IMG/VR virus record: IMGVR_UViG_3300025372_000001
DNA length: 64,000 nt
Source of the DNA: a virus
Taxonomy: Duplodnaviria; Caudoviricetes
Strand: one strand, 5' to 3'
In this document: positions 4,241 through 51,552 of the stretch, piece by piece
Layout of the letters: each line of letters starts with the position of its first letter
Position numbering within the stretch: position 1 is the first letter of the stretch
Notes under the pieces: generated by a model
What the model saw: only the letters and a program-made list of their open reading frames with translations
Database searches by the model: none
Told to the model about the DNA's origin: nothing
Program-made: the position numbers and the translations under genes

Positions 4241-4294
4241 TACCTTTATTTATTAACGATAGAAACCGGAGATGGATTATGATATATAGTAATA

Positions 4295-4910: not shown

Positions 4911-5002
4911 AGCAGGGTAGAGAAACAGTTGATCTCGTCGGGTTCATATTCCGAAGGCTACTCAAAAGCGCATAATTGGTGCAACACCAGCCCCTGCAAC
5001 CA
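4911..5002 (+). tRNA. tRNA-Met(CAT), initiator-like, atypical with 20-nt variable region
   Basis: AGCAGGG/CCCTGCA-A-CCA acceptor with 1:72 mismatch; GAGA/TCTC D stem; TCGGG-TTCATAT-TCCGA anticodon arm; weak T arm ATTGG-TGCAACA-CCAGC. Confidence 0.75.
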
Positions 5003-19452: not shown

Positions 19453-19821
19453 TTATTCGCTTTGCCAAATTTTATTTTTAAACATTTGGCGATTTTCTAG
19501 GCATTTAAAATATTGATTATTAAAGTTATCTTTTAACTTTTGCTCCCATGTTTCGATTTCCTTATAAGTTTTAAACTTTTTACAGAATTCAACTAATTCA
19601 TTAAAATTATCAGATAAATGTGGTTGATTTATGCTCCATAATTCAGGAAATTGATTACCTGCCATAAAAGGATCAATAAAATTATGCCAAGACCATCCTT
19701 TATAATATTGAGCAATATAATAAAATTGTCCATATGCAATAACTCTAGTCTTCACCTTCGTCTCCTTCTCAGGAGGAACATAACCAACTACTTTCAATAA
19801 TGGTTTTAATAAATTATACAT
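19453..19821 (-). CDS. Hypothetical protein (paralog of 19824-20012)
   Basis: MYNLLK start shared. Confidence 0.7.
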   Translation of the reverse strand: MYNLLKPLLKVVGYVPPEKETKVKTRVIAYGQFYYIAQYYKGWSWHNFIDPFMAGNQFPELWSINQPHLSDNFNELVEFCKKFKTYKEIETWEQKLKDNFNNQYFKCLENRQMFKNKIWQSE

Positions 19822-19823
19822 AA

Positions 19824-20012
19824 TTAAATTTTAAAAATAAAAGAGTTACTGAACAATTTACTGAAATCTTTCGAATAGTGATAGTATTGAATATCAAAAT
19901 ATCCTTTACCTTTATTGACTACTCTACAATTCATTCTATTGTGAATATTTCCATCAGTGATATATCTTACGTCTGTAAAAAATTCTTTAAGCTGCTTTAA
20001 TAAATTATACAT
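19824..20012 (-). CDS. Hypothetical protein, possibly truncated paralog
   Basis: MYNLLK start shared. Confidence 0.55.
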   Translation of the reverse strand: MYNLLKQLKEFFTDVRYITDGNIHNRMNCRVVNKGKGYFDIQYYHYSKDFSKLFSNSFIFKI

Positions 20013-34513: not shown

Positions 34514-34947
34514 ATATACAAATACATAAATTTAAAACTATTACAGAATTATTATTGTATACTTTTGATTATAATGAATATAGTAACACTTTTACATATT
34601 CGGGATTTCAAATTTCACGAAGAAATGACATTTATGATGTTTGGGGCCATAAATGGTTAAAACATTTTGCTAAACAAAAACTTAAAGAAGAACAAGAATA
34701 TGAAGCAAAATTTGACTATTATCCTGATGGATATGATTATAATCCGTTAGATGAAGGATATAATGTCATTGCGAAAAAATATAATCCATTTTTGAATAAA
34801 ACAAATACTGGAAAACCTTATTTGGAAGGCATAGCTTCATATAATACTAAGCATCTCCCTGTTCCAGAATTTACCAAAGAAGAATTATTGGAACAATTGA
34901 AGAAAGCAGTTGCAATGAAATTAAAAACTGCTACTTTACGGCTATGA
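34510..34947 (+). CDS. Hypothetical protein
   Basis: 145 aa. Confidence 0.7.
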   Translation: MNIQIHKFKTITELLLYTFDYNEYSNTFTYSGFQISRRNDIYDVWGHKWLKHFAKQKLKEEQEYEAKFDYYPDGYDYNPLDEGYNVIAKKYNPFLNKTNTGKPYLEGIASYNTKHLPVPEFTKEELLEQLKKAVAMKLKTATLRL

Positions 34948-35396
34948 CACTACAATTAGAAATTAACAAACAAATTAAACAAGCAATGATTGCCAAAGAT
35001 CAATCCCGTGTTGATGTTCTTCGACAAGTCAAAACAGCAATCACCAATGCTGCGCTTGCTTCCGGTAATGCAAGTAACACTCTTACTGATAATGAAGTAA
35101 TTGGAATTATTCGTAAGCAAATTAAACAAAGAGAAGATTCTTCCGAACAATTTTTTAAAGGCAATCGTCTTGAACTTGTTGAAAAAGAACAATTAGAAAT
35201 TAACATTCTGAAACAATATCTTCCCAGTGAATTATCTCAAGAAGAATTTGATAATTTGATTCAACTTGCTATTGCTGAAACCAATGCAATTACTAAGAAA
35301 GATATGGGAAAGGCTATTAAGCGGGCCGTTGAATTGGCAGAAGGACGAATTGACAATAAGAGTATTTCTCAAGAAATCGCAAAATATTTAAAATAA
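34944..35396 (+). CDS. GatB/YqeY domain protein
   Basis: KQAMIAKD..RVDVLR...KQIKQREDS..QF..GNRLELVEKE..EI.IL..YLP..LS..KDMGK. Confidence 0.9.
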   Translation: MTLQLEINKQIKQAMIAKDQSRVDVLRQVKTAITNAALASGNASNTLTDNEVIGIIRKQIKQREDSSEQFFKGNRLELVEKEQLEINILKQYLPSELSQEEFDNLIQLAIAETNAITKKDMGKAIKRAVELAEGRIDNKSISQEIAKYLK

Positions 35397-35401
35397 TACA
35401 G

Positions 35402-35836
35402 ATGACACTTAAATCTCTCATTGAACAATATCTAGCAACTGATTCTATTCGATTATCCGAATCTTTGGAAAATCAAATTATTTCTCTTATTGATGAACAT
35501 GTTAAGCAACAATTTGAGATTTATAAGAAATGGGACATGCTCGTTGGAGATACTGATTATGATGGTTACGATTCCGAAAAAGGAACGTGGATATTTAAAA
35601 CTTGTTTACCAGATGAAGTTTATCTAGAACATATTGTCTATTATGGAGCATGTGGTTGTGAAGGATTTTCTAAATATTTCAAATATAATGAAATTGATAA
35701 TTTTGATTGGAAAGCATTTGAAGAAAAAGTCAAAGCTAATTGCATTAAACAATTGACCGCCCAACATAAAAGCCTTATAGATAAAGCGGATAAAATCTCT
35801 AAACAAATAGAAGAATTACAAAAGAATGAAACCTGA
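35402..35836 (+). CDS. Hypothetical protein
   Basis: 144 aa. Confidence 0.7.
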   Translation: MTLKSLIEQYLATDSIRLSESLENQIISLIDEHVKQQFEIYKKWDMLVGDTDYDGYDSEKGTWIFKTCLPDEVYLEHIVYYGACGCEGFSKYFKYNEIDNFDWKAFEEKVKANCIKQLTAQHKSLIDKADKISKQIEELQKNET

Positions 35837-36503
35837 AAATATCTTCCTAGTACGTCATGGTCAAAGCGAAGGCAATGTTGATAAAGAAATTTATAAAACA
35901 AAGCCAGATTACACTTTACAATTAACTGACCTGGGAAAAGAACAAGCCAGAGATGTTGGAAGTAAGTTGAAAGAAATTATTGGAGAGAAGAATGTTTGTT
36001 TTTATATTTCTCCTTATTGGAGAACTAGGCAAACAGCAGAACAGATTAAGAAAGCATTCACTTATTCTAATCAAATTTGGCATTCTTTTGAGGATGTTAG
36101 GTTACGGGAACAAGAGTGGGGGAACCACATCTCTTCTGGATTTAATGAGAAGTATGAAGAGATGCGAGAAGCATACGGATCATTTTATTGGAGTTTTCCT
36201 AATGGGGAAAGTTGTGCAGCAGTATTTGATCGTACTTCGGATTTCCTTTCGACAATGTATCGGGATTTTGACAAATTTAATTTCCCTAGAAATGCTATTA
36301 TTGTAACGCATGGAATGACGATGCGGGTGTTTCTGATGCGTTGGTTTCATATGACAGTGGAAGATTTTGAATTATTGGCTAATCCTGATAATTGTGATTA
36401 TTATCATTTACAACTACAAAGTGATGGCAAATATAAGTTGTTGACAGAACCAAAAAAGTATGATAAACATACGCACAATTATCAATATCGAGCCGAGGAA
36501 TAA
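35826..36503 (+). CDS. Histidine phosphatase (phosphoglycerate mutase family)
   Basis: LVRHGQS, RTRQTA, LREQEWG, IVTHG. Confidence 0.9.
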   Translation: MKPENIFLVRHGQSEGNVDKEIYKTKPDYTLQLTDLGKEQARDVGSKLKEIIGEKNVCFYISPYWRTRQTAEQIKKAFTYSNQIWHSFEDVRLREQEWGNHISSGFNEKYEEMREAYGSFYWSFPNGESCAAVFDRTSDFLSTMYRDFDKFNFPRNAIIVTHGMTMRVFLMRWFHMTVEDFELLANPDNCDYYHLQLQSDGKYKLLTEPKKYDKHTHNYQYRAEE

Positions 36504-38049: not shown

Positions 38050-38237
38050 ATCATAATTCAACAGATTGTAGAACAAAAGAAGGAATTGCAGTCGGTCTAA
38101 TTGACGGAATTATTGCAATGTCAAGAGCACTTCGACGAATGGATGTAGATTTAACTGTTCCTATTAATGAAGCATTTATTGATTTACATTCTGATGAAGA
38201 TGTGAAATGGTTGATGAACGTTAGTACCTTATCATGA
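38046..38237 (+). CDS. Small hypothetical protein
   Basis: 63 aa, coupled at both ends. Confidence 0.6.
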   Translation: MNHNSTDCRTKEGIAVGLIDGIIAMSRALRRMDVDLTVPINEAFIDLHSDEDVKWLMNVSTLS

Positions 38238-38875
38238 AACTTATCGGAATAACCGGAAATATTGCAAGTGGTAAATCTACCATTTCTAAAATGATTGCCG
38301 AACATTATAATCTACCATTAATTAATGTTGATGATTTTTCTAGGAATTGGATAAATTTATATCCTCTAAAGGTTGCAACTGCTCTTGAATGCTTTGGTTT
38401 CCGAGATTCCAGTATGAATGTACTTGATAATCTTATGAAAGTGGTTTTTACAAAGGAAGCCAACTACGTTGATCCTGAATTTAAAAATAGTTCAAGGAGT
38501 TTTAAACAATTTTTTGAAGATTTAGTCGCAGATGATTTCTGGAATTATGTTAATCATTTTATGATTCCTGAATTTTATGATGCAATGATTATTGAACATC
38601 CAATTCTATTTGAAAAAGCAGATCAAGATAAATTCGATTTCATTATCGGTGTTGATGCAACAGATGATATTCGTGTTGACAGAATGAAGAAAAGAGGTTA
38701 TAGTCCTGCAACAACAAGGCAACGCTTAAATAATCAAATTCCTCTTTATCAAAATAAAGATAATATTGATCTTATTTTAGATAATAATATTCCCCTTACC
38801 AAAGAAGAAATCATAAATGAACTATCAAATTCCAGAGAGTTTAAAGCCCTTATATCCCAAGGTTCCTTATCATAA
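38234..38875 (+). CDS. coaE: Dephospho-CoA kinase
   Basis: IGITGNIASGKST P-loop; IEHPILFE; R..RM.KR; DLILDN. Confidence 0.8.
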   Translation: MKLIGITGNIASGKSTISKMIAEHYNLPLINVDDFSRNWINLYPLKVATALECFGFRDSSMNVLDNLMKVVFTKEANYVDPEFKNSSRSFKQFFEDLVADDFWNYVNHFMIPEFYDAMIIEHPILFEKADQDKFDFIIGVDATDDIRVDRMKKRGYSPATTRQRLNNQIPLYQNKDNIDLILDNNIPLTKEEIINELSNSREFKALISQGSLS

Positions 38876-39773
38876 TCTTGCTCATACAGAATCATTTGAT
38901 TGGGAATCCTGCCCTTCCGGTAATGCATATTGGGCAGCAGTATTCCATGACTTTGTTTATAATCCTAAAGTAAAAGGATTGGAAGGTAATGAGTTAGCTT
39001 CTTATAAAGCTTTTGAATCATATATGCGTAATAAAGGGGATTATTATCTCGCTTTTCCTAATTACGATCAAGTTAAGAAACTAATTATGTCAACAATGGA
39101 TCATGTGAAATATTTTGATCCAGATGATGAGGATATGGTTTGGCTTCACACCAATGATTTATTTTGTTTTCGAGATGGGGCAAATGTATATGAAAATGAA
39201 TTGAAAATCTTCAAAGAATATCAATTCACTAAATTTGATTTCTATAAGGAACGTAGATTAGAATTGTTGAAATATTATCGAAAACACCCTCTTGTTCACT
39301 CAGAAAAGATAGATGAAATTGAAAATTATTTTAGTAATTTTATTCCTCATATTGGGTTATTCGTGGGAAGCTTCAATCCGTTCACCCGTGGGCATTTTGA
39401 CATTCTTCAACAAGCAGAAAAGGTATTTGATAAGGTTATTATTGCTCAAGGACAAAATGAAGAAAAGGAAACCAATAATTATTCTCTTCATAATGTAAAG
39501 GCATTGGAATATCATGAATTGGATAGTTATGAAGGAAGTTTATTTTCTTATGTGGATAGAAAGAAAAAAGAACTCGGTAATATCACATTGGTTAGAGGAT
39601 TGAGGAATTATCATGACTTACATGATGAAAGCAATCTATTTAATTTTGCCAAAGATTATACTGATGTTCCTTTTGCCTACTTTATTTCTAAATCAGAAAA
39701 TCTACATATTAGTAGTGGAGCCGTGAGGAAATTAATATCATTAGGAAAAGACGTAAAGGAATATCTACCATGA
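38817..39773 (+). CDS. coaD: HD-like domain fused to phosphopantetheine adenylyltransferase
   Basis: N-term PYHNLAH...FHDFVY; C-term GSFNPFTRGH, LVRGLR, ISSGAVR. Confidence 0.8.
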   Translation: MNYQIPESLKPLYPKVPYHNLAHTESFDWESCPSGNAYWAAVFHDFVYNPKVKGLEGNELASYKAFESYMRNKGDYYLAFPNYDQVKKLIMSTMDHVKYFDPDDEDMVWLHTNDLFCFRDGANVYENELKIFKEYQFTKFDFYKERRLELLKYYRKHPLVHSEKIDEIENYFSNFIPHIGLFVGSFNPFTRGHFDILQQAEKVFDKVIIAQGQNEEKETNNYSLHNVKALEYHELDSYEGSLFSYVDRKKKELGNITLVRGLRNYHDLHDESNLFNFAKDYTDVPFAYFISKSENLHISSGAVRKLISLGKDVKEYLP

Positions 39774-40222
39774 TCGATTTTTTAACAAAACATAATACTA
39801 GAGTTAATTTTCTAGGATCAGGGAAATCTCCCGAAGAAATTTTCGAAAATATTAAAGTATATGCACGGGAATTTACTTCTATTTCTAAACAGGAACGCAT
39901 TCAAGAAGCATTAGATCAAATGGTTCGTTATAGAAATGCTTATCATTTACAAGCAATTGATTCAGTTGATATTGAAAGTTCAACAGAGCAAACCTTAAAA
40001 AGATATGATGATTATGTGAAAATGATTTCTTATTCAATTGAAGAATGGTATGATTTACGTAATAGTATCACATGTGATATTACAGGTAAGAATATCCCTT
40101 ATGACACTAATTATTTTATTTTGAATATTGATGATGGACATGATGATTGTCGTGATTTGGTTTTATCTGTTGACGGATTGAAACAGTTGTGCGAATCTGC
40201 CTCAGAACTATTAACTAATTAA
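39770..40222 (+). CDS. Hypothetical protein (paralog of next gene)
   Basis: CDITGKNIPYDTNY. Confidence 0.75.
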   Translation: MIDFLTKHNTRVNFLGSGKSPEEIFENIKVYAREFTSISKQERIQEALDQMVRYRNAYHLQAIDSVDIESSTEQTLKRYDDYVKMISYSIEEWYDLRNSITCDITGKNIPYDTNYFILNIDDGHDDCRDLVLSVDGLKQLCESASELLTN

Positions 40223-40226
40223 TTTT

Positions 40227-40655
40227 ATGAAACCGATTTTTAAAAAGCAGAATAGTAAGTTTACTCCTTATTGGAATTATTCAATAGAGGAAGAATATAA
40301 AAATAGCATGAATCGAATTGAGAAACATTTATCTATTTCTCTAGAAGAACATATTCAGCGTGCTATAGACTTCGCGAAGTTATACTTCGTAACACCTAAT
40401 ATTGATCAAATTCGGGAAAATCAATCGAATCATTATCTAAGACAGCAACAACTATCGACTGCTTCTTTAGTGGAATATTATAATGCATTTTTATGCAACG
40501 TATGTAGTGTCACTGGTGAGAAAATTCCTTATGACACTGATTATTATATTCAAGTAATTCAAGAAGATGAAAATGATCCTGAATATCTGCTTTATTCTTT
40601 GGAAGGAATGAAAGTGATGCAAAATGAAATCGACGAAATTATTAATGCCTTATAA
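40227..40655 (+). CDS. Hypothetical protein (paralog of previous gene)
   Basis: CSVTGEKIPYDTDY. Confidence 0.75.
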   Translation: MKPIFKKQNSKFTPYWNYSIEEEYKNSMNRIEKHLSISLEEHIQRAIDFAKLYFVTPNIDQIRENQSNHYLRQQQLSTASLVEYYNAFLCNVCSVTGEKIPYDTDYYIQVIQEDENDPEYLLYSLEGMKVMQNEIDEIINAL

Positions 40656-40794
40656 AGAACTTATTAAAAGTTTTAAAGAAGGAAGAGAATTGCTGTATAA
40701 GTTACAAGGCCCGATTACTGATAAAATGATTGAGGATTTAGAGAATAGTCGAAAATATACATCAATTCCCTCTCGAAAGAAAACATAAAACCTC

Positions 40795-40823
40795 TTGACT
40801 TAACTCTACTTTTGAAGTAAACT
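40795..40823 (+). promoter_or_regulatory. sigma70-type promoter for DUF2828 gene
   Basis: TTGACT-17-TAAACT, ATG 10 nt later. Confidence 0.65.
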
Positions 40824-40833
40824 CCTGACTACT

Positions 40834-42552
40834 ATGTTCAATACAAAGAAAACCCAACTATTCGTTCCTCCTGCAAAGACTCCAAAATTTAAGTCTGTTG
40901 CAGAAATTACCTCATCTCCTTCAGCAAAAACTCCTTTGCCTATTTTTGTACAATCTGCTCAAAAGAAATCATTTGAAATTCTATCTGGCAACGGAGCCTT
41001 GAAGTACTCTTCAACTGGTAATGAAGGAGTAAATCAATTCGCTAAAGTAGGATCATATAAAAAGCCTCGGCCTTTTAACGAAATTGAAAAAGATTGTGAA
41101 CTTCTTTGGGCAGAAGACCCTCTTAATTCTGTTAAATTTATTCATTATCTTCGCACTATCACTCGAAAAGTTCAACTCATTGATGGTTCTGTAACTGCTG
41201 AACCTCAAAAGGGAGGAGAACTTAAACACGAAGCAATCATGCGTATGATTTGGCTTTTCACTAAAAGCCCCGACACCTTTTGGAAGAATATTGGCTGGTT
41301 TATTGCTCTTGGTTCTTGGCACGACATCTTTACCATGTTGCAATATGATCTGGTTTATAATGGATGGGAAAGTCGTGTTTTAGATTGGAACAAGATGGGA
41401 AACGTTATTCTGGTTGGTCTTGCTGATTCTCATACCTCTGAACTGGTTAAGAAGTACCTTCCACAAATTAAAGCTAGGTCTGATTGTAAGACGGTCGAAA
41501 GTCAAGCTAATACTACAATTGGAAAGTGGATTTGTTCTCTTCTGTTTGGTCCAAAGGAAACATCTTATAATTATAAGACTTATCGTAAACTTAAATCAGG
41601 CGGTACTGCCCATCAGTGGCAACAATTGATTTCTCAAAAGAAGTTTGATCAAATTGATTTTGGTGCAATTCATGGACGAGCATTACATCTACTTGTTCGT
41701 AGTAAGTTCCTTAAGAATCAGAATTTATCAGATAAGTTTGCTACATGGGTCAAGAAACCGGATACAGTAGTAAGATATACTGGTTTCGTTCATGAATTAT
41801 TCACTAATATTCCTACTGCATTATCTGGAATGGCAGCACATGTTCGGGATACCGTGAATAAACAATTTGATACTCTTGTTGCTAAGGGGAAAAGTGAAAC
41901 AAAAGAAGATTCTTGTACTTGGCTACCTGTGCTAGACACATCTGGCTCAATGGGAGCACAATGTACAGGAACTAATGCTTCTTGTTTAACTGTTGCTAAG
42001 TCACTGGCATTATATTTCTCAGAATTCTTGACTGGAAAGTTTATGAATTCATTTGTTGAATTTAATACAAAGGCAAAGATGCATACGTGGCAAGGTGCTA
42101 CTCCAATTGAAAAATGGTATAATAATCGTTGTTCTCATGTAGGAAGTACTAATTTCCAAAGTGTAATTGATTTGTACGTTGATTTAAAGAATCAAGGAAT
42201 TGAAGAAGCAGAGTTTCCTACAGGAATTTTAGCAATTTCCGATTCTGAATTTAATCCTACATCTTTAGGTAAAACTAATGTGGAAGTGGCAAGGGCCAAA
42301 CTTCGTCAAGCCGGTTTTTCTGATACTTTTGTAGATAAGTTCCAGATTGTTCTTTGGAATTTACAAAGTGGATATTATGGTGCAAGTACTGGGAAGAAGT
42401 TTGAAACTGGGGCAACCGAGAAAGGTACTTATTATTTTGGGGGTTTCAATGGTTCAGTTATTTCGTTCTTAACTAATCATGAAGTTAAGACACCTGCTCA
42501 ATTGTTCTTACAAGCATTAGATCAGCAAGTTTTAAATTATATTGAATTGTAA
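40834..42552 (+). CDS. DUF2828-type protein with C-terminal vWA domain (TROVE/Ro60-like architecture)
   Basis: Helical N-term (YSSTGN, GSWHD, KKYLP) plus MIDAS-like VLDTSGSM, STNFQSVID, ISDSEFN, IVLWNL. Confidence 0.75.
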   Translation: MFNTKKTQLFVPPAKTPKFKSVAEITSSPSAKTPLPIFVQSAQKKSFEILSGNGALKYSSTGNEGVNQFAKVGSYKKPRPFNEIEKDCELLWAEDPLNSVKFIHYLRTITRKVQLIDGSVTAEPQKGGELKHEAIMRMIWLFTKSPDTFWKNIGWFIALGSWHDIFTMLQYDLVYNGWESRVLDWNKMGNVILVGLADSHTSELVKKYLPQIKARSDCKTVESQANTTIGKWICSLLFGPKETSYNYKTYRKLKSGGTAHQWQQLISQKKFDQIDFGAIHGRALHLLVRSKFLKNQNLSDKFATWVKKPDTVVRYTGFVHELFTNIPTALSGMAAHVRDTVNKQFDTLVAKGKSETKEDSCTWLPVLDTSGSMGAQCTGTNASCLTVAKSLALYFSEFLTGKFMNSFVEFNTKAKMHTWQGATPIEKWYNNRCSHVGSTNFQSVIDLYVDLKNQGIEEAEFPTGILAISDSEFNPTSLGKTNVEVARAKLRQAGFSDTFVDKFQIVLWNLQSGYYGASTGKKFETGATEKGTYYFGGFNGSVISFLTNHEVKTPAQLFLQALDQQVLNYIEL

Positions 42553-42567
42553 TAAGTTAAAGTTTAA

Positions 42568-42594
42568 ACTTTCCTACGAGGTACGTAGGAAAGT
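42568..42594. other. Perfect 11-bp hairpin between the DUF2828 gene and the RNA-array promoter
   Basis: ACTTTCCTACG-AGGTA-CGTAGGAAAGT; no U-tract on + strand. Confidence 0.6.
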
Positions 42595-42605
42595 GAAGAA
42601 AAGAG

Positions 42606-42634
42606 TTGACAATGATAGTATGATGGGTTAAGTT
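42606..42634 (+). promoter_or_regulatory. sigma70-type promoter for ncRNA array
   Basis: TTGACA-17-TAAGTT. Confidence 0.75.
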
Positions 42635-42640
42635 AGTATC

Positions 42641-43056
42641 AAGACAAGAGTTCTTACAGCAAATTATAAATTCTGCTTTATAGAAAACAAAAGAACTCTG
42701 AAAAAGAGACGCACAGCAAACCAATTTACCTTTGTATTCGGCACAAACAAGTAAACGTCTCTTGAACAAGAAATCAAACTGCAAAACAAAAATTTATTGG
42801 CAAAATAAAACAAACGATTTCTGATAAGAAGACAGTCCCGCAAATATAACAAAAAATCTATGTTCAAACAGAACCGAGAGCGTTCGATTCGCTCAACTTT
42901 ATAACTTGGTGTTTGGTAAAGGTCAAAAAGTTAGTCTTCTGAAAAGGTTTTATACTGCAAATTAAAAAGCATTTCAAGCCGTTGGTCGAAGGTTCAAGTC
43001 CTTCCTCTCTATTTTAGAGAGTAGCTCAGTTGGTAGAGCAACGTAAACAAAACCTG
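42641..43056 (+). ncRNA. Array of five tandem Y-RNA-like cassettes
   Basis: Five units, each a 7-bp closing stem followed by C(A/T/C)GCAAA: 42647-42699, 42705-42762, 42769-42822, 42827-42940, 42945-43055. Confidence 0.7.
42978..43043 (+). ncRNA. Circularly permuted tRNA-like module (YrlA-like) inside cassette 5
   Basis: T arm GAAGG-TTCAAGT-CCTTC, acceptor hairpin CTCTCTA-TTT-TAGAGAG, D arm GCTC-AGTTGGTA-GAGC, flanked by CGT/ACG. Confidence 0.8.
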
Positions 43057-43064
43057 TTAAAACG

Positions 43065-43094
43065 AAAACCGACAAGTAAAGTTGTCGGTTTTTT
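43065..43094 (+). terminator. Intrinsic terminator ending the ncRNA array
   Basis: AAAACCGACAA-GTAAAG-TTGTCGGTTTTTT. Confidence 0.9.
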
Positions 43095-43167
43095 GTTGTC
43101 GAAAAAGTGGAAACAGGATGACGAAAGTGTTACAGTATCAGTCACCTGTGACTAAATAAACAAACAG

Positions 43168-45417
43168 ATGACGAATAACTCTAATATGGAAATACTTGTT
43201 AAAAAAAGGGACGGAAGAACAGAAAAATTTGATGCGGAGAAAGCTAATAGGATTATTAAATGGGCATGTGAAGGAGTGCGAGATGTCGAAGAAGATACCA
43301 TTGGTTTAGCATTTCATACTAATATCAAAAATGGTATTTCTACTAAACAAATTCATAGAGGCTTAATCGAAGCAACTGTTTCTTTAATTACAGAGAATAC
43401 TCCTAATTATGAAATTGTTGCTGCAAATCTTCTTAATTATGAATTGAGAAAACATGTATGGGGAGGAACAGAACCCCCTAACTTTCTGACATTTATTAAA
43501 AATAATGTTAAACATAAAAGATATACTGATGAAATTTTAGAATGGTTTTCTGAAAAAGAAATCAACGATTTTGGAGAATATATTGATCATGATAGAGATT
43601 TTCTATTCAAATATTCAGGATTATCACAAGTTATTGACAAATATCTCGTTAAGAATGTAATTGATAAAACTGTATTCGAGACTCCTAATTTTGCTTATAT
43701 GCTTATTGCAATGACTCTCTTTCATAAAGAGAAAGAGATGATTAAAGAAGCATATGATGCATTTTCGACACATAAAATTTCTCTGCCTACACCTGTTTTT
43801 GCAGGTGTTAGAACTAATTTAAAATCATTTGCAAGTTGTTGTCTGTTAGATGTAGGAGATAGTATTCCTGAGATTACAACTGCATTTGAAGTGATTGCGA
43901 AAGCCACGGCTAAAAGATATGGGATTGGCGTTAACATGACTAAAATGCGGCCCATTGGTGCTCCAATTAAAGGAGGAGAGAATGCTCATACTGGTAAAGT
44001 AGGATTTCTTAGAATTATTCAAGATACTATCAAAGCATGGCTTCAAAGTTCAACCCGCTCAGGCGCAGCAACAGTGAATCTACCTATTTGGGATTATGAA
44101 ATCGAAGAAATCGTTCAATTAAAAGACCCCATGCGTCCCCCTGAAAATCGGGTAGGAGACATTGATTATTGTGTTGCATTCAGTAAAATATTCTATGATC
44201 GATATAAAAATAATGGAGTAATTACCTTATTTAACCCTCATGAGGTTCCCGAATTAGAACAAACGTATGGTTTACCTGAATTCGATGAACTTTATATCCG
44301 AGCAGAGAATAATCCTAAAATTAAAATGAAAAAAACGGTAAAGGCTCGCGAGTTTTTCACTTTATTTAATAAGTTTCGTGTTGAAACTGGTAGATTATAC
44401 ATTCTTAATATTGATCATGCCAATACTCATAGCTCTTTCTTGGAAAGAGTAGGAATGGGAAATCTTTGCCTTGAGGTTACTCACCCGACAGTTCCCATGC
44501 AACACCTGAACGATCCAGAAGGATTGATGGGTATTTGTATTCTCTGTGCAGTCAATCCTATTAATATTAAGACAGACGAAGAATTATATAATATTTGTAA
44601 GATTTCAGTTAAAATGTTAGATCATTTAATTGATTATCAAGATTATTTTTGTGAACCGGCTGAACGATTTGCTACAAAATATCGCTCATTAGGAATAGGT
44701 ATTACTAACTTTGCTGCATGGCTAGCTAAAAAAGGTTTGAAATATTCTTCGGAAGAAGCAAGAGAAGAATCCCATACCTTCTTTGAAAAGTTTCAATTCT
44801 TTTTATTGAAGGCATCTAACGAATTAGCAAAAGAAAAAGGTAAATGTGAATATTTTGATAAAACCAAATATTCCAAGGGTATTTTACCGATTGACACTTA
44901 TGTAAAAGAAATCGATAATTTTATTCCTAATAATTTACAAATGGATTGGGAATGGTTGAGAAGAGGAATTAAAGAACACGGTTTACGACATTCCACCTTA
45001 ACGGCATATATGCCGTGTGAGGCCAGTAGTTTATGTACTAATTCAACCAATGGTATTGAGCGTCCTCGTTCTAAATTTTTGGTCAAGAGTAACAAAAGCA
45101 AAGATTTCCCTATTATTATTCCTAATCATAAACGTTGGAATTATGAATATGCTTTTGAAAAATCTGATAATACGGATCATCTTAAAATGATGGCGATTAT
45201 TCAGAAATTCTGTGATATGTCCATTTCAACTAATCTTTATTATAATTATTCTTTATATCCAGATGGTAAAATACCTGCTATTACTATTTTGAAGGATATG
45301 GCAAATGCTCATAAATGGGGTATTAAGACGATTTATTATACTAATTCAGACGATGGCAACCAACATAATCTTTCTGATGTGTCTAGTAGTTGCAGTAGTG
45401 GTGCTTGCGCAATTTAA
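43168..45417 (+). CDS. nrdA: Class Ia ribonucleotide reductase alpha subunit with ATP cone
   Basis: VKKRDG ATP cone; SLPTP; FASCCL; NLCLEV; C-terminal CSSGACAI. Confidence 0.95.
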   Translation: MTNNSNMEILVKKRDGRTEKFDAEKANRIIKWACEGVRDVEEDTIGLAFHTNIKNGISTKQIHRGLIEATVSLITENTPNYEIVAANLLNYELRKHVWGGTEPPNFLTFIKNNVKHKRYTDEILEWFSEKEINDFGEYIDHDRDFLFKYSGLSQVIDKYLVKNVIDKTVFETPNFAYMLIAMTLFHKEKEMIKEAYDAFSTHKISLPTPVFAGVRTNLKSFASCCLLDVGDSIPEITTAFEVIAKATAKRYGIGVNMTKMRPIGAPIKGGENAHTGKVGFLRIIQDTIKAWLQSSTRSGAATVNLPIWDYEIEEIVQLKDPMRPPENRVGDIDYCVAFSKIFYDRYKNNGVITLFNPHEVPELEQTYGLPEFDELYIRAENNPKIKMKKTVKAREFFTLFNKFRVETGRLYILNIDHANTHSSFLERVGMGNLCLEVTHPTVPMQHLNDPEGLMGICILCAVNPINIKTDEELYNICKISVKMLDHLIDYQDYFCEPAERFATKYRSLGIGITNFAAWLAKKGLKYSSEEAREESHTFFEKFQFFLLKASNELAKEKGKCEYFDKTKYSKGILPIDTYVKEIDNFIPNNLQMDWEWLRRGIKEHGLRHSTLTAYMPCEASSLCTNSTNGIERPRSKFLVKSNKSKDFPIIIPNHKRWNYEYAFEKSDNTDHLKMMAIIQKFCDMSISTNLYYNYSLYPDGKIPAITILKDMANAHKWGIKTIYYTNSDDGNQHNLSDVSSSCSSGACAI

Positions 45418-49217: not shown

Positions 49218-50129
49218 ATGCTAAAAGAACTAAATAAAACTGAGTCGGGAGCCGTGATTTGCAGATTTCAATGTCATGTGCTTCATGCTGCACATATCGA
49301 CCTAATCAACACTGTCTTGGCTAAACATAGTCGAGTATTTGTTTTTCTAGGTTGTTCTCCTCTTCGTAATACTCCTAGAGCACCTTTAGATTTCAAACAT
49401 AGAAAGGCTATGTTGGAAGAACAATTTGGTGATAAGCTAGAAATTCATCCTATCCATGATAATCGTAGTGATGAAGTTTGGAGTAAAAATCTAGATCGAG
49501 AAATTATTCGTCTTCTTCCTCCTGGGCAAAGTACTACTCTTTATGGTTCCCGTGATTCATTCATTGGACATTATAAAGGTAAATTTCCCACTTGTGAACT
49601 TGAATCCGAATCCTTTATTTCTGCTTCACAAGTAAGAAAAGAAATTATTACTAATTATCCTTCTTCTAAAGATTTTCGAGCAGGAATGATTGCAGCAACG
49701 GGGCAACATTATCCAACAGCATATCAAACCGTAGATGTTGCCGTAGTTAATGAAACAAATGATAAAGTTCTATTGGTTAAGAAACCGGGAGAAGATAAAT
49801 GGCGTTTCATTGGAGGTTTCAGTGATCCATCGTCTAATTCTCTTGAAGATGATGCAAAACGTGAAGTAATGGAAGAAACAGGAGTGGAAATTTCTGAACC
49901 GGTTTATCTAGGTAGTTCCTTAATTAAAGATTGGAGGTACCGTAGTTGTACAAATAAGATAAAAACCGCATTATTCATGGCAACATATAAATCAGGAACA
50001 CCAGAAGGAGCAGATGATGTAGAAGCTGCAAAATGGTTTAATTTAAATGATTTAAACGAAAGTAATGTTGTGGAAGAACATCATGTTCTCCTTAACTTAT
50101 TCTTTAAAAAGGTTAAGGTGAAGGCGTAA
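49218..50129 (+). CDS. Bifunctional NMN adenylyltransferase / Nudix ADP-ribose pyrophosphatase (NadM-Nudix, NatV-like)
   Basis: RFQCHVLHAAH nucleotidyltransferase motif; Nudix box GGF..P...LEDDAKREVMEETG. Confidence 0.9.
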   Translation: MLKELNKTESGAVICRFQCHVLHAAHIDLINTVLAKHSRVFVFLGCSPLRNTPRAPLDFKHRKAMLEEQFGDKLEIHPIHDNRSDEVWSKNLDREIIRLLPPGQSTTLYGSRDSFIGHYKGKFPTCELESESFISASQVRKEIITNYPSSKDFRAGMIAATGQHYPTAYQTVDVAVVNETNDKVLLVKKPGEDKWRFIGGFSDPSSNSLEDDAKREVMEETGVEISEPVYLGSSLIKDWRYRSCTNKIKTALFMATYKSGTPEGADDVEAAKWFNLNDLNESNVVEEHHVLLNLFFKKVKVKA

Positions 50130-50160
50130 CCAATCAATAACATATATAGAAAATAATATA

Positions 50161-51552
50161 ATGAAAAAAGGTAATTTAATTCTGGCATGTGATTTATATA
50201 AAGTAGTTCATTGGCGACAAGTTCCAAAAAAAATTTCTTATATGCACTCTTATATTGAGGCAAGAGGAACAGAACTACCTAATGTAAATTATGTTCGTCC
50301 TTTTGGCATTCAGGGATTTATTAAAGATTATTTAGAAGGTGTTGTTATTGAACAATGGATGATTGACGAAGCAAAGGAAATTCTAGGGGAAGTATTTCAA
50401 ACTCATGAATACTTCAATGAAAAAGGATTTAGCGAAATTATTCGTCAATATAATGGGCGTTTACCTATTACCATTAAAGCCGTAGAAGAAGGTAAGAAAG
50501 TAGGATTGAAAAATGTACTGGTTACGGTAGAAGCATGGGGCGAGTTTGCATGGTTAGCCACATGGATTGAAACTATGCTGCTTAGGGCAGTTTGGTACGG
50601 CACTGCGGTATGTACTTTTAGTAGTGCATTGAAAGATATTGAACGTAAATATGCAAATCTCTGTGGATGTCCCATGAATCCATTCTTTATTTGTGACTTC
50701 GGTGGTCGCTCAGTTTCTAGCCACGAATCGGCAGGTATTGGTGGAGCAGCACATTTAGTTAATTATCTAGGCTCTGATACTGTTGAAGGTATTGTTTGGG
50801 CAAAACGTAATTACGGTCCTACTGCGACAGGTTATAGTGTGTACGCTTCGGAACACTCAACTAGTACTATTTACGGTAGGGAACATGAAATTGATGCATA
50901 TCGTCATTTCTTAAATGACGCACCAATGGATAAGATTGTCTCTATTGTAACTGATTCTTATAGCCATGAAAATGCTGTTCGTAATATTCTTGGAAAAGAA
51001 TTGAAAGAAGTTATTTTAGCAGGACATGCTAAAACTGTTATTCGTGGAGATTCTGGTGATCCACTTGATGTATCGCTTAAAACTTTGCAATGGTTGTGGG
51101 AAGATTTTTCGGGCGAAATCAATCCTCGTGGATTTAAAGTTCTTAATCCTAAAGTGCAATTACTTTGGGGTGACGGAGTAGATATAAACTCTTACGATGC
51201 TATTTTAAATTACATTACTTCTAATGGTTTTAGTTCTGAAAATATGTTTTTTGGAATGGGTGGTGAGCTTTTACAGAAAGCAAATCGTGATCGTTTTAAA
51301 TTCGCTTGCAAACTATCTCATGCTATTGTAGATGGTGTTCCAACGGACATCTTTAAAGACCCTGAAGGCGATCATTCTAAACGTTCTAAAGCAGGTATCC
51401 TTAAACTTATTTATGAAAATGGACAATATCAAACAGTTCAAGCTCATGAACGACCTGACCTTAAAGATGAATTAGAAGTAGTCTTTAAAGATGGTTATCT
51501 AATGAAAGAACTTACCTTTGAACAAATTCGCCAAAATGCAGCCAATACTTAA
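50161..51552 (+). CDS. nadV: Nicotinamide phosphoribosyltransferase (NAMPT)
   Basis: CDLYKVVH, DFGGRSVS, GSDT, ASEHST, IRGDSGD, GDG, FGMGG. Confidence 0.9.
   Translation: MKKGNLILACDLYKVVHWRQVPKKISYMHSYIEARGTELPNVNYVRPFGIQGFIKDYLEGVVIEQWMIDEAKEILGEVFQTHEYFNEKGFSEIIRQYNGRLPITIKAVEEGKKVGLKNVLVTVEAWGEFAWLATWIETMLLRAVWYGTAVCTFSSALKDIERKYANLCGCPMNPFFICDFGGRSVSSHESAGIGGAAHLVNYLGSDTVEGIVWAKRNYGPTATGYSVYASEHSTSTIYGREHEIDAYRHFLNDAPMDKIVSIVTDSYSHENAVRNILGKELKEVILAGHAKTVIRGDSGDPLDVSLKTLQWLWEDFSGEINPRGFKVLNPKVQLLWGDGVDINSYDAILNYITSNGFSSENMFFGMGGELLQKANRDRFKFACKLSHAIVDGVPTDIFKDPEGDHSKRSKAGILKLIYENGQYQTVQAHERPDLKDELEVVFKDGYLMKELTFEQIRQNAANT

What the first reader, a model, noticed from the sequence alone, without database searches (positions are those of the whole stretch)
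40834..42552. DUF2828/vWA protein as the likely Ro60-type partner of the RNA array
Seen: 572 aa with a helical N-terminal region and a C-terminal vWA domain bearing a MIDAS-like DTSGS motif, its own promoter, and the ncRNA unit ~90 nt downstream. Known: Ro60/Rsr is a TROVE helical ring closed by a vWA domain, binds Y RNAs and in Deinococcus is tethered to PNPase; bacterial rsr loci often include rtcB. No RNA ligase gene is visible in this window. Inference: the adjacency suggests DUF2828 proteins are a divergent Ro60 branch with their own RNA family.
Basis: inference. Interest (0 to 1): 0.7.

Follow-up and report, generated by a model that had tools for sequence, protein, structure and literature searches.

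The report
Phage Ro60-like protein with partner RNAs
This freshwater jumbo-phage gene encodes a protein predicted to fold like the RNA-binding ring Ro60, and the five small RNAs right after it share one conserved "handle" that follows this protein family through very different phages and bacteria, so the two most likely form a divergent, apparently undescribed type of Ro/Y-RNA particle.

Summary
ORF 40834-42552 encodes 572 aa with a helical N-terminal part, a C-terminal vWA domain and a DTSGS MIDAS motif. The first RNA unit starts 89 nt downstream.

- **Fold:** the AlphaFold model (pLDDT 93) matches every solved Ro60 over its whole length (Z up to 18.4). vWA-only proteins score 10.9 or less. 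Pfam's TROVE model does not detect the protein, so this is a separate sequence family (DUF2828/DUF7788) with the Ro60 fold.
- **RNA partner:** 42641-43066 holds five modules sharing a handle (AAG, a 7-bp covarying stem, ACAGCAA, an A-rich stretch, CUG). The last module is a YrlA-type permuted tRNA mimic.
- **Linkage:** handle RNAs lie beside the gene in at least 60 of 80 related phage loci, in isolated phages at about 23% protein identity, and in bacterial loci. All 164 hits are on the gene's strand.
- **Context:** in 9 of 42 bacterial loci an RtcB ligase gene is adjacent, as in rsr operons. In at least 12 phage relatives a handle covers the gene's own start codon.

Binding itself is untested. 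This scan has already noted the same pairing on other DNA many times. The handle also resembles Dictyostelium Class I RNAs, which remains speculative.

The parts
40795..40823 (+). Promoter-like site TTGACT-17 nt-TAAACT. Its second hexamer ends 10 nt before the ATG, so the leader would be very short and there is no visible Shine-Dalgarno sequence.
   Evidence: 9 of 12 matches; such sites are not enriched over shuffles. Similar boxes precede the gene in relatives L001, L004, L005 and L010.
40834..42552 (+). Gene for a 572-aa Ro60-fold protein of the DUF2828/DUF7788 family (PHROG 850).
40942..41889 (+). Helical repeat part (residues 37-352), the counterpart of the Ro60 TROVE/HEAT ring.
   Evidence: helices, pLDDT above 90; model residues 44-551 align to Xenopus Ro60 residues 11-537, with 429 residues at 4.2 A and Z 18.4.
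41905..42549 (+). vWA domain (residues 358-572), which closes the ring in Ro60.
   Evidence: The family profile matches the vWA domain of human and Xenopus Ro60 by sequence (E 6.8e-4 and 2.2e-3).
41935..41949 (+). MIDAS motif DTSGS (residues 368-372), followed by M373. Ro60 has DVSASM at the aligned place.
42568..42594 (+). Perfect 11-bp hairpin just after the stop codon, with no U tract. It may be a transcript end or a stability element.
   Evidence: inverted repeat I5.
42606..42634 (+). Promoter-like TTGACA-17 nt-TAAGTT in front of the RNA array.
   Evidence: Read from the sequence. The scan does not list it; the scan requires T at the last position of the second hexamer, which is present, but only 4 of 6 positions there match TATAAT.
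42641..42707 (+). Handle RNA module 1: AAG, stem GAGUUCUU/AAGAACUC, ACAGCAA, CUG.
   Evidence: R2 62.7 bits, E 3.6e-10; R1 40.4 bits; Rfam Class I RNA model 33.9 bits.
42698..42771 (+). Handle RNA module 2: stem GAGACG/CGUCUC, ACAGCAA.
   Evidence: R2 40.1 bits when searched alone. In the full search it is masked because it shares linkers with its neighbours.
42763..42830 (+). Handle RNA module 3: stem GAAAUC/GAUUUC, ACUGCAA.
   Evidence: R2 49.6 bits, E 3.1e-7.
42821..42947 (+). Handle RNA module 4: stem GAAGAC (42828-42833) with GUCUUC (42934-42939), CCCGCAA. Its body holds a T-arm-like hairpin at 42878-42894.
   Evidence: Read by eye. The model aligned it differently and scored only 12.2 bits, so this is the weakest module.
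42934..43066 (+). Handle RNA module 5: a YrlA-type permuted tRNA mimic (anticodon-like stem, T arm, acceptor stem closed by a loop, D arm) on the same handle.
   Evidence: Rfam YrlA 46.4 bits, E 4.7e-9, below the gathering score of 69. R1 112.3 bits. Five-helix covariation.
43065..43098 (+). Intrinsic terminator (11-bp stem followed by a U run) that ends the array, 70 nt before nrdA.
   Evidence: inverted repeat I7.

Best explanation
The gene encodes a divergent Ro60-type protein: a ring of helical repeats closed by a vWA/MIDAS domain. The five RNAs transcribed just downstream are its Y-RNA-like partners.

Each RNA module has a common handle. The 5' and 3' ends form a 7-bp stem flanked by AAG and CUG, with ACAGCAA next to the 5' strand and an A-rich stretch before the 3' strand. 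The bodies differ: plain hairpins, a T-arm hairpin, and a full permuted tRNA mimic.

By analogy with Ro60 and Y RNA, the protein most likely grips the handle on its outer surface. The variable body would recruit other factors, such as enzymes that recognise tRNA, or host PNPase as shown for Thermus phage phiLo Ro60. The central hole would take the ends of damaged or misfolded RNA. The particle therefore probably acts in RNA (very likely tRNA) surveillance or repair, or in hijacking host RNA enzymes during infection.

Shown here: the fold, the RNA structures, the conserved gene-RNA linkage, and the RNA-repair neighbours in bacteria. Inferred: that the protein binds the handle, where it binds, and what the particle does.
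For: - **Fold.** The model has pLDDT 93 and pTM 0.91. The top 12 Foldseek PDB hits are all Ro60/TROVE (E 9e-7 to 1e-3, 540-600 aligned columns). VIA-align gives Z 18.4 to 2i91_B, with every Ro60 chain above the vWA-only hits at 10.9 or less. Swiss-Prot models of Ro60 from five species and Tetrahymena p80 lead that list.
- **Sequence.** The family profile's best PDB sequence hits are human and Xenopus Ro60 across the MIDAS region.
- **RNA structure.** YrlA model E 4.7e-9. In the five-helix structure 90.8% of cells are paired against 65.8% in shuffles, with 147 double changes against 45. The handle stem is 100% paired, with 54 double changes against 14.6.
- **Linkage in phages.** All 101 R1 hits and all 164 R2 hits are on the gene's strand. 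At least 60 of 80 IMG/VR loci have a hit, and in the 64-kb window the only hits lie next to the gene.
- **Whole genomes.** In two complete relatives (391 kb and 212 kb), 8 of 9 hits lie within 2 kb downstream of the gene.
- **Distant phages.** Handles also flank the gene in Leptolyngbya, Klebsiella, Staphylococcus, Bacillus and Enterococcus phages; all but the Leptolyngbya phage (41.8%) share only about 23% protein identity.
- **Bacteria.** About 15 of 42 chromosomal loci have handles.
- **Own mRNA.** In at least 12 relatives a handle spans the gene's own start codon, with AUG inside the stem. This is what an autoregulating RNA-binding protein would show.
- **Neighbours.** RtcB lies within 4 kb on the same strand in 9 of 42 bacterial loci, once with Band-7. 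There is an Rnl2-type ligase directly upstream in L006/L010/L042, an RNA ligase near the gene in Salmonella phage Munch, and tRNA arrays around it in Nate, KP2025 and EF1.
- **Precedent.** A canonical phage Ro60 binds adjacent Y-like RNAs and host PNPase (PMC12135203). YrlA RNAs sit next to Ro60 in more than 250 bacteria and 22 phages (PMC4201824).
Against: - There is no direct evidence of binding.
- Pfam TROVE (PF05731) does not detect this protein or its relatives in five phage records. Membership of the TROVE family therefore rests on fold plus a weak profile hit in the vWA part.
- The handle does not resemble the bulged-helix Ro site of animal Y RNAs or the YrlA consensus outside the tRNA-like core.
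- About 20 of 80 related loci show no handle within 3 kb. Fragmented contigs and diverged handles could explain this.
- One relative (G005) has three handle copies far from the gene on the other strand.
- This window has no RtcB or RNA ligase and no start-codon handle.
Confidence: 0.85

Rival explanations
1. The protein is Ro60-like, but the neighbouring handle RNAs are not its ligands. They would be tRNA-like decoys or processing substrates handled by host or other phage factors. They would sit near the gene only because both belong to the phage's tRNA/RNA-metabolism region.
For: In many isolated phages the gene lies inside tRNA arrays. tmRNA and tRNA genes neighbour it in IMG/VR relatives. 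One relative has handle copies far from the gene.
Against: In this window the array has no tRNA neighbour; the tRNAs are at 4911 and 14049. The array still abuts the gene. The linkage persists across phages of unrelated hosts and into bacterial chromosomes, always on the same strand. A handle over the gene's own start codon in at least 12 relatives is hard to explain without the gene product binding it.
Confidence: 0.08
2. The protein is a vWA/MIDAS adaptor for protein-protein work, for example a MoxR/ViaA-type cochaperone partner. Its likeness to Ro60 would be only a shared helical-repeat-plus-vWA arrangement.
For: ViaA and other vWA proteins appear lower in the fold lists. The TROVE sequence model does not match. 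Helical repeats can give middling Z scores by chance (note).
Against: Ro60 chains align over about 430 residues across both domains at Z 12.9-18.4, well separated from the next class. No AAA+ MoxR partner gene is adjacent. The RNA and RtcB context points to RNA.
Confidence: 0.04
3. The 42606-43098 array is a cis-acting leader or regulatory region for the ribonucleotide reductase genes that follow (43168 onward), unrelated to the upstream protein.
For: The array ends 70 nt before nrdA, on the same strand.
Against: The array has its own promoter-like site and a strong terminator. In relatives the array keeps its place beside the Ro-like gene, upstream or downstream, while the other neighbours change.
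Confidence: 0.03

Closest known systems
Ro60 (Rsr) with Y RNAs in bacteria: Deinococcus Rsr-Yrn1-PNPase, and the Salmonella and Mycobacterium rsr-yrlA/yrlB loci with rtcB (Chen et al. 2014, PMC4201824)
   Same: A ring of helical repeats closed by a vWA/MIDAS domain. Small RNAs are encoded beside the gene, their 5' and 3' ends form a closing stem, and at least one carries a permuted tRNA-like domain (T arm, closed acceptor, D arm). Several different RNAs accompany each protein. RtcB is a neighbour in the bacterial members.
   Different: Pfam TROVE does not detect the protein, which shares 9-14% identity with solved Ro60s. The RNA handle (AAG, stem, ACAGCAA, A-rich stretch, stem, CUG) is a different motif. 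The RNAs come as a tandem array of up to five or more units. YrlA scores below Rfam's gathering score.
Thermus phage phiLo Ro60 with Yrl1 and Yrl2 (PMC12135203; PDB 9kop, 9l5y)
   Same: A phage-encoded Ro60-fold protein with Y-like RNAs encoded next to the gene. It is among the best structural matches (Z 14.5-15.4). It offers a tested mechanism: binding the RNAs and host PNPase.
   Different: phiLo Ro60 is a canonical TROVE protein. Its RNAs were identified through a CGAA motif, not the ACAGCAA handle, and no tRNA mimic was described.
Pfam DUF2828 (PF11443) plus DUF7788 (PF25043), PHROG 850 'RNA-binding protein'
   Same: This is the sequence family of the protein. It occurs in 411 isolated phage records, in Bacteroidota, Myxococcota and other bacteria, and in eukaryotes.
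   Different: These entries carry no function, no fold assignment to Ro60 and no RNA partner. Only five papers in the searched library mention DUF2828, and none discusses this.
Class I RNAs of Dictyostelia (Rfam RF01414; Kjellin et al. 2021, PMC7919456)
   Same: The same architecture: an AAG start, a 6-7-bp end-to-end stem beginning with G-C, (C)UUACAGCAA directly after the 5' strand, a variable body, an A-rich 3' part and a CUG(U) end. The Rfam model hits the phage modules repeatedly and only on the gene strand, at 27-36 bits.
   Different: They are eukaryotic, single genes with their own promoter element, and reported as unique to Dictyostelia. Their known binder is the RRM protein Rnp1A. 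All phage hits fall below the gathering score of 41.5. I could not test whether Dictyostelia encode a DUF2828 protein.

Membership tests
Ro60 / Rsr (TROVE + vWA) | Ring of HEAT-like helical repeats (TROVE fold) | tested here: met
   Model residues 44-551 align to Xenopus Ro60 residues 11-537 (Z 18.4, 429 aa, 4.2 A). All Ro60 entries rank first.
Ro60 / Rsr (TROVE + vWA) | C-terminal vWA domain with a MIDAS motif | tested here: met
   D368, S370, S372, T439 and D470 are conserved in 106 relatives. The profile aligns DTSGSM to the DVSASM of Ro60.
Ro60 / Rsr (TROVE + vWA) | Match to the Pfam TROVE model PF05731 | tested here: not met
   No hit at E up to 1. None of 5 related phage records match, while the Deinococcus and Bacteroides control genomes do.
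Ro60 / Rsr (TROVE + vWA) | Y RNA genes encoded beside the gene | tested here: met
   Five modules at 42641-43066. The linkage is conserved and always on the gene's strand.
Ro60 / Rsr (TROVE + vWA) | Physical binding of the Y RNA stem on the outer surface and of RNA ends in the central hole | not testable with these tools
This needs gel shift, RIP-seq or cryo-EM.
Ro60 / Rsr (TROVE + vWA) | Link to RNA-repair genes (rtcB) in bacterial operons | tested here: inconclusive
   Absent from this window and from five related phage records. Present within 4 kb on the same strand in 9 of 42 bacterial loci of the family.
DUF2828 / DUF7788 (Pfam), PHROG 850 | Scores above the curated cut-offs | tested here: met
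   DUF7788 scores 37.5 bits against a cut-off of 27.1. PHROG 850 matches at 1e-33 over residues 45-564. DUF2828 itself scores 22.8 bits against a cut-off of 29 in this protein, but relatives carry it.
YrlA Y RNA (Rfam RF02553) | Rfam gathering score | tested here: not met
   46.4 bits against 69, with E 4.7e-9. No relative reaches the gathering score either.
YrlA Y RNA (Rfam RF02553) | Permuted tRNA-like core (T arm, acceptor closed by a loop, D arm) on an end-to-end stem | tested here: met
   Five helices with compensatory changes in 23 sequences. The window copy scores 112 bits with model R1.
Dictyostelid Class I RNA (Rfam RF01414) | Rfam gathering score, and occurrence in Dictyostelia with the DUSE promoter element | tested here: not met
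   The best window hit scores 33.9 bits against 41.5. There are 15 sub-threshold hits in 9 relatives. This is phage DNA, not a dictyostelid genome.

The most novel reading that the evidence does not exclude
The ACAGCAA handle is the recognition element of a second, ancient Ro-like ribonucleoprotein lineage (DUF2828/DUF7788) that spans phages, bacteria and eukaryotes. The orphan Class I RNAs of Dictyostelia, which share the AAG-stem-(C)UUACAGCAA...stem-CUG architecture, would then be its eukaryotic Y-RNA equivalents, bound by a DUF2828-type protein. The family does occur in eukaryote entries of AlphaFold DB. Close homologues turn up in four amoebozoan transcriptomes, though these could be bacterial prey contamination.
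Probability: 0.1. Interest if true: 0.85.

Novelty: new variant of a known kind. Interest (0 to 1): 0.62.

Why it matters
Ro60 and its Y RNAs are a classic but still poorly understood RNA-surveillance system.

- **A second family.** This result identifies a second protein family with the same fold, invisible to the TROVE sequence model, together with its own RNA family. Rfam-based annotation misses that RNA family entirely.
- **Many testable systems.** The family is common: 411 isolated phage genomes, including Felix O1-type coliphages and Staphylococcus, Klebsiella, Bacillus and Enterococcus phages. Tractable systems therefore exist to ask what a Ro particle does during infection. Candidates are tRNA repair after host nuclease attack, capture of PNPase, and decoy functions.
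- **Annotation fixes.** It corrects tiny 'hypothetical proteins' and an aberrant 432-nt 'tRNA' that overlie these RNAs.
- **Regulation.** It suggests a translational autoregulation device in relatives, with a handle over the start codon.
- **A lead on Class I RNAs.** If the Dictyostelium link held, it would give a candidate function and partner to an RNA class that has lacked an explanation since its first description in 2004.

Tried and rejected
- **DNA similarity.** Megablast of 40000-44000 against isolated phages gave no match.
- **PDB by sequence.** The single protein against PDB sequences gave nothing. Only the family profile reached Ro60.
- **Locus search.** The search for related loci with the wide alignment A1 failed for lack of a conserved stretch. 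The narrower A2 worked.
- **Whole genome.** None is held for the window, so RtcB, PNPase and further handle copies elsewhere in this 262-kb phage could not be searched.
- **Rfam at gathering threshold.** It finds only tRNA and tmRNA in the window and in 19 relatives, neither YrlA nor Class I RNA.
- **Expression.** No RNA run was listed for the array or the gene; only freshwater DNA metagenomes hold the stretch.
- **Start-codon handle in this window.** Nothing scored above 4.7 bits.
- **Module 4.** Model R2 did not recover it (12.2 bits with a different pairing). It rests on reading the sequence.
- **Avesson et al. 2011.** This paper names the four Class I RNA-binding proteins but is not held. 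I also could not query eukaryotic genomes for DUF2828 in Dictyostelia.
- **Burroughs & Aravind 2016** (Rot/TROVE scaffolds in RNA repair, recalled from memory). I could not find it in the library, so I cannot say whether it already places DUF2828 with TROVE.
- **Complex prediction.** Not used, because it does not handle protein-RNA pairs.
Full report
**What is there**

The ORF at 40834-42552 (+) is intact and encodes 572 aa.
- Pfam sees only DUF7788 at residues 365-553 (37.5 bits, above its cut-off) and a sub-threshold DUF2828 match at 53-157.
- PHROG 850, labelled 'RNA-binding protein', matches over residues 45-564 at 1e-33.
- The DTSGS motif is at residues 368-372. In an alignment of 106 relatives down to 27% identity, D368, S370, S372, T439 and D470 are invariant or nearly so. 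That is a complete MIDAS signature.
- A promoter-like TTGACT-17-TAAACT ends 10 nt before the ATG. Alone it is no better than chance, but close relatives carry similar boxes.
- After the stop codon come an 11-bp hairpin (42568-42594), a TTGACA-17-TAAGTT box (42606-42634), about 430 nt without an ORF, and a strong terminator at 43065-43098. The class I ribonucleotide reductase genes follow.
- The window comes from a large T4-like freshwater phage. It carries a clamp loader, RNR, NAD salvage genes and a DNA ligase, the protein occurs on a 262-kb contig, and the runs that hold this DNA are freshwater metagenomes.

**The fold**

- An AlphaFold2 model built on the 106-sequence alignment is confident (pLDDT 93, pTM 0.91). 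It shows helices from 37 to 352 and an alpha/beta domain from 358 to 572.
- In Foldseek against the PDB, the twelve best hits are all Ro60/TROVE structures, aligned over 540-600 columns.
- VIA-align gives Z 18.4 to Xenopus Ro60 (2i91_B): 429 residues at 4.2 A, model 44-551 against chain 11-537. Human Ro60, Thermus phage phiLo Ro60 and Deinococcus Rsr follow at Z 12.9-17.4. The next class, vWA-only proteins, stops at 10.9.
- Among Swiss-Prot models, Ro60 from five species and the TROVE protein p80 of Tetrahymena telomerase lead.
- Among AlphaFold DB clusters the nearest are DUF7788/DUF2828 proteins, with one 'Trove-domain-containing protein' further down.
- By sequence, the family profile's best PDB hits are again human and Xenopus Ro60 (E 6.8e-4 and 2.2e-3), across the MIDAS strand, where DTSGSM aligns with DVSASM.
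- The Pfam TROVE model does not detect this protein. It also finds nothing in five related phage records, while it does find the Deinococcus and Bacteroides control genomes.

The protein therefore has the Ro60 architecture but belongs to a separate sequence family.

**The RNA next door**

- A permissive Rfam scan finds YrlA, the bacterial tRNA-like Y RNA, at 42960-43066 (46.4 bits, E 4.7e-9, below the gathering score of 69). The T arm, an acceptor stem closed by a loop, and the D arm are plain in the sequence.
- The rest of the intergenic region consists of four more stem-loop modules. All five share one handle: AAG, a 6-8-bp stem formed by the two ends of the module, (A)C(A/U)GCAA directly after the 5' strand, an A-rich run before the 3' strand, then CUG. 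UGAnnAAG linkers join the modules.
- I fetched 80 related loci from IMG/VR at 42-66% protein identity and built two covariance models.
- R1 models the handle plus tRNA mimic, from 23 sequences. 90.8% of cells are paired against 65.8% in shuffles, and there are 147 double changes against 45.
- R2 models the short handle module, from 25 sequences. The closing stem is 100% paired, with 54 double changes against 14.6, and pairing collapses to 32-46% when the partner is slid.
- In the window R2 scores modules 1, 3 and 5 directly (62.7, 49.6 and 37.4 bits). Module 2 scores 40.1 bits when searched alone, because neighbours share linkers and overlapping hits are dropped.
- Module 4 is supported only by a perfect GAAGAC/GUCUUC stem read by eye. 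It carries a T-arm-like hairpin, as described for YrlB (PMC4201824).

**Is the RNA tied to the gene?**

- All 101 R1 hits and all 164 R2 hits across 0.64-0.68 Mb searched on both strands lie on the strand of the Ro-like gene.
- At least 60 of the 80 loci have a handle within the 3-kb flanks, directly downstream or directly upstream of the gene.
- Within the 64-kb window the only hits are those next to the gene.
- In two complete related genomes of 391 kb and 212 kb, 8 of 9 hits lie within 2 kb downstream of the gene. Over five records, 17 of 21 hits lie within 4 kb. One record has three distant copies.
- The family is widespread in isolated phages: 411 records, mostly annotated as hypothetical, DUF2828 or 'RNA-binding protein'.
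- Handles flank the gene even at about 23% protein identity. Examples are Leptolyngbya phage Lbo-JY46 (41.8% identity), Klebsiella phage KP2025 (which also has a tRNA mimic at 76.5 bits), Bacillus phage Nate and Enterococcus phage EF1. Staphylococcus phage S-CoN_Ph10 has three tandem units lying under two tiny annotated CDSs.
- Chromosomal members in Saprospiraceae, Myxococcota, Chitinophagales, Alistipes and others also have same-strand handles or tRNA mimics in about 15 of 42 loci.

**Two further lines of support**

- *A handle on the gene's own mRNA.* In at least 12 phage relatives a handle lies over the start of the Ro-like gene itself: AAG-AUGUUU-AACAGCAA...AAACAU-CUG, with the AUG inside the 5' strand of the closing stem. 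This is the arrangement expected if the protein represses its own translation by binding a copy of its RNA ligand. It also explains the conserved MF(N/D)SK N-terminus. This window lacks it.
- *Gene neighbours.* In bacteria an RtcB RNA ligase gene, canonical or divergent, lies within 4 kb on the same strand in 9 of 42 loci, once with a Band-7/SPFH gene between. This echoes the rsr-yrlBA-rtcBA operon of Salmonella. Among phages, three near-identical relatives have an Rnl2-type ligase directly upstream, and Salmonella phage Munch has an RNA ligase two genes upstream. In several phages the gene sits inside the tRNA array. One homologue, from an amoeba transcriptome that clusters with Bacteroidota proteins, is fused to a 2H phosphoesterase domain. 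RtcB itself is absent from five related phage records and from the window ORFs I scanned.

**Mechanism**

- Shown: the Ro60 fold, structured RNAs with a conserved handle, tight conserved linkage, and RNA-repair or tRNA context.
- Inferred: the protein binds the handle as Ro60 binds the conserved end-to-end helix of Y RNAs. The variable bodies, including the tRNA mimic, act as adaptors for other enzymes. The particle works on damaged or misfolded RNA, or captures a host enzyme.
- Precedent: the canonical Ro60 of Thermus phage phiLo binds two adjacent Y-like RNAs and host PNPase and slows the nuclease (PMC12135203).
- I put 0.85 on 'Ro60-type protein partnered with these RNAs' and much less on any particular downstream function.

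**Comparison and novelty**

- Ro60-Y RNA pairs in bacteria and phages are known (PMC4201824, PMC12135203). A review of jumbo phages notes ROT/TROVE proteins with a tRNA-like partner in a small subset (PMC7824862).
- New relative to those papers: the protein family (DUF2828/DUF7788, not found by the TROVE model), the handle motif, and the tandem array. I found no paper on any of these. DUF2828 occurs in five unrelated papers. I could not read Burroughs & Aravind 2016, which may touch on the family.
- I class it as a new variant of a known kind.
- Earlier notes of this scan describe the same pairing in many other genomes, and in this window's RNA array. My models and counts were made independently and agree with them.

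**A speculative extension**

- The Rfam model for Dictyostelium Class I RNAs hits module 1 at 33.9 bits (E 2e-4). It hits 15 more modules in nine relatives, all on the gene strand and all below the gathering score of 41.5.
- The published description of Class I RNAs matches the phage handle point for point: AAG start, 6-bp end-to-end stem, an 11-nt CCUUACAGCAA next to the 5' strand with C6, C9, A10 and A11 most conserved, and a CUGU end (PMC7919456).
- The same paper reports them as unique to Dictyostelia and bound by the RRM protein Rnp1A plus three other proteins.
- I could not test whether dictyostelids encode a DUF2828 protein. Homologues in four amoebozoan transcriptomes may be prey contamination.
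- I give this reading about 0.1.

Noticed in passing
L008, L048, L050, L007, L066, L026, L024, L020, L053 at about 2993-3068; L013 and L041 at 2984-3062; L049 at 20-83: A handle module overlaps the start codon of the Ro-like gene in at least 12 relatives (AAG-AUGUUU-AACAGCAA...AAACAU-CUG). This is probably translational autoregulation. It is not present in this window (best score 4.7 bits).
   Followed up: partly
window 42648-42700, 42770-42823, 42828-42941; nine related loci: Rfam's Dictyostelium Class I RNA model (RF01414) hits the handle modules repeatedly, below threshold (27-36 bits), and only on the gene strand. The published Class I architecture matches the handle.
   Followed up: partly
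L082 (Staphylococcus phage S-CoN_Ph10) 4017-4238: Three tandem handle modules lie under two tiny annotated 'hypothetical protein' CDSs (4010-4099 and 4162-4263). These are likely mis-annotations of RNA genes.
   Followed up: no
L085 (Klebsiella phage KP2025) 2357-2788: A 432-nt 'tRNA-Arg-TCT' is annotated across the start of the DUF2828 gene. It is probably a tRNA-finder artefact. A handle (4080-4147) and a tRNA mimic (4148-4286, 76.5 bits) lie downstream.
   Followed up: no
L090, L091, L098, L099, L101, L103, L113 (upstream); L100, L121 (downstream): Bacterial DUF2828 genes have RtcB next door on the same strand. Seven of the nine are a divergent RtcB of about 455 aa that matches only model positions 135-424. 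L121 also has a Band-7/SPFH gene in between. L090 has a 1.5-kb ORF-free gap between RtcB and the gene where my phage-trained models found nothing.
   Followed up: partly
protein P0222 (EukProt, Rhizamoeba saxonica transcriptome): An 843-aa homologue carries a C-terminal 2H phosphoesterase (PF13563) domain. Its nearest relatives are Bacteroidota proteins, so it may be bacterial contamination. Three other amoebozoan transcriptomes hold similar sequences.
   Followed up: partly
L045 5922-6281; L048 5806-6208: A phage-encoded tmRNA lies just after the handle RNA array in two relatives. tRNA clusters flank the gene in L013, L024 and L041.
   Followed up: no
window 4911-5002: ARAGORN calls a 92-nt tRNA-Met (CAT) that Rfam's tRNA model does not report at its gathering score. 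It may be an intron-containing or otherwise atypical tRNA, or a false call.
   Followed up: no
window 34944-35396, 35826-36503, 38234-39773, 49218-51552: Auxiliary genes surround the locus: a YqeY-like protein, a histidine phosphatase, a CoaE-like kinase plus a cytidylyltransferase-like protein, an NMNAT-Nudix fusion and a nicotinamide phosphoribosyltransferase (NAD salvage).
   Followed up: no
G005 (contig of L010) 19816-19886, 70699-70764, 70883-70955, minus strand: One relative has three handle copies far from the Ro-like gene and on the other strand, so the RNAs are not always clustered with the gene.
   Followed up: no
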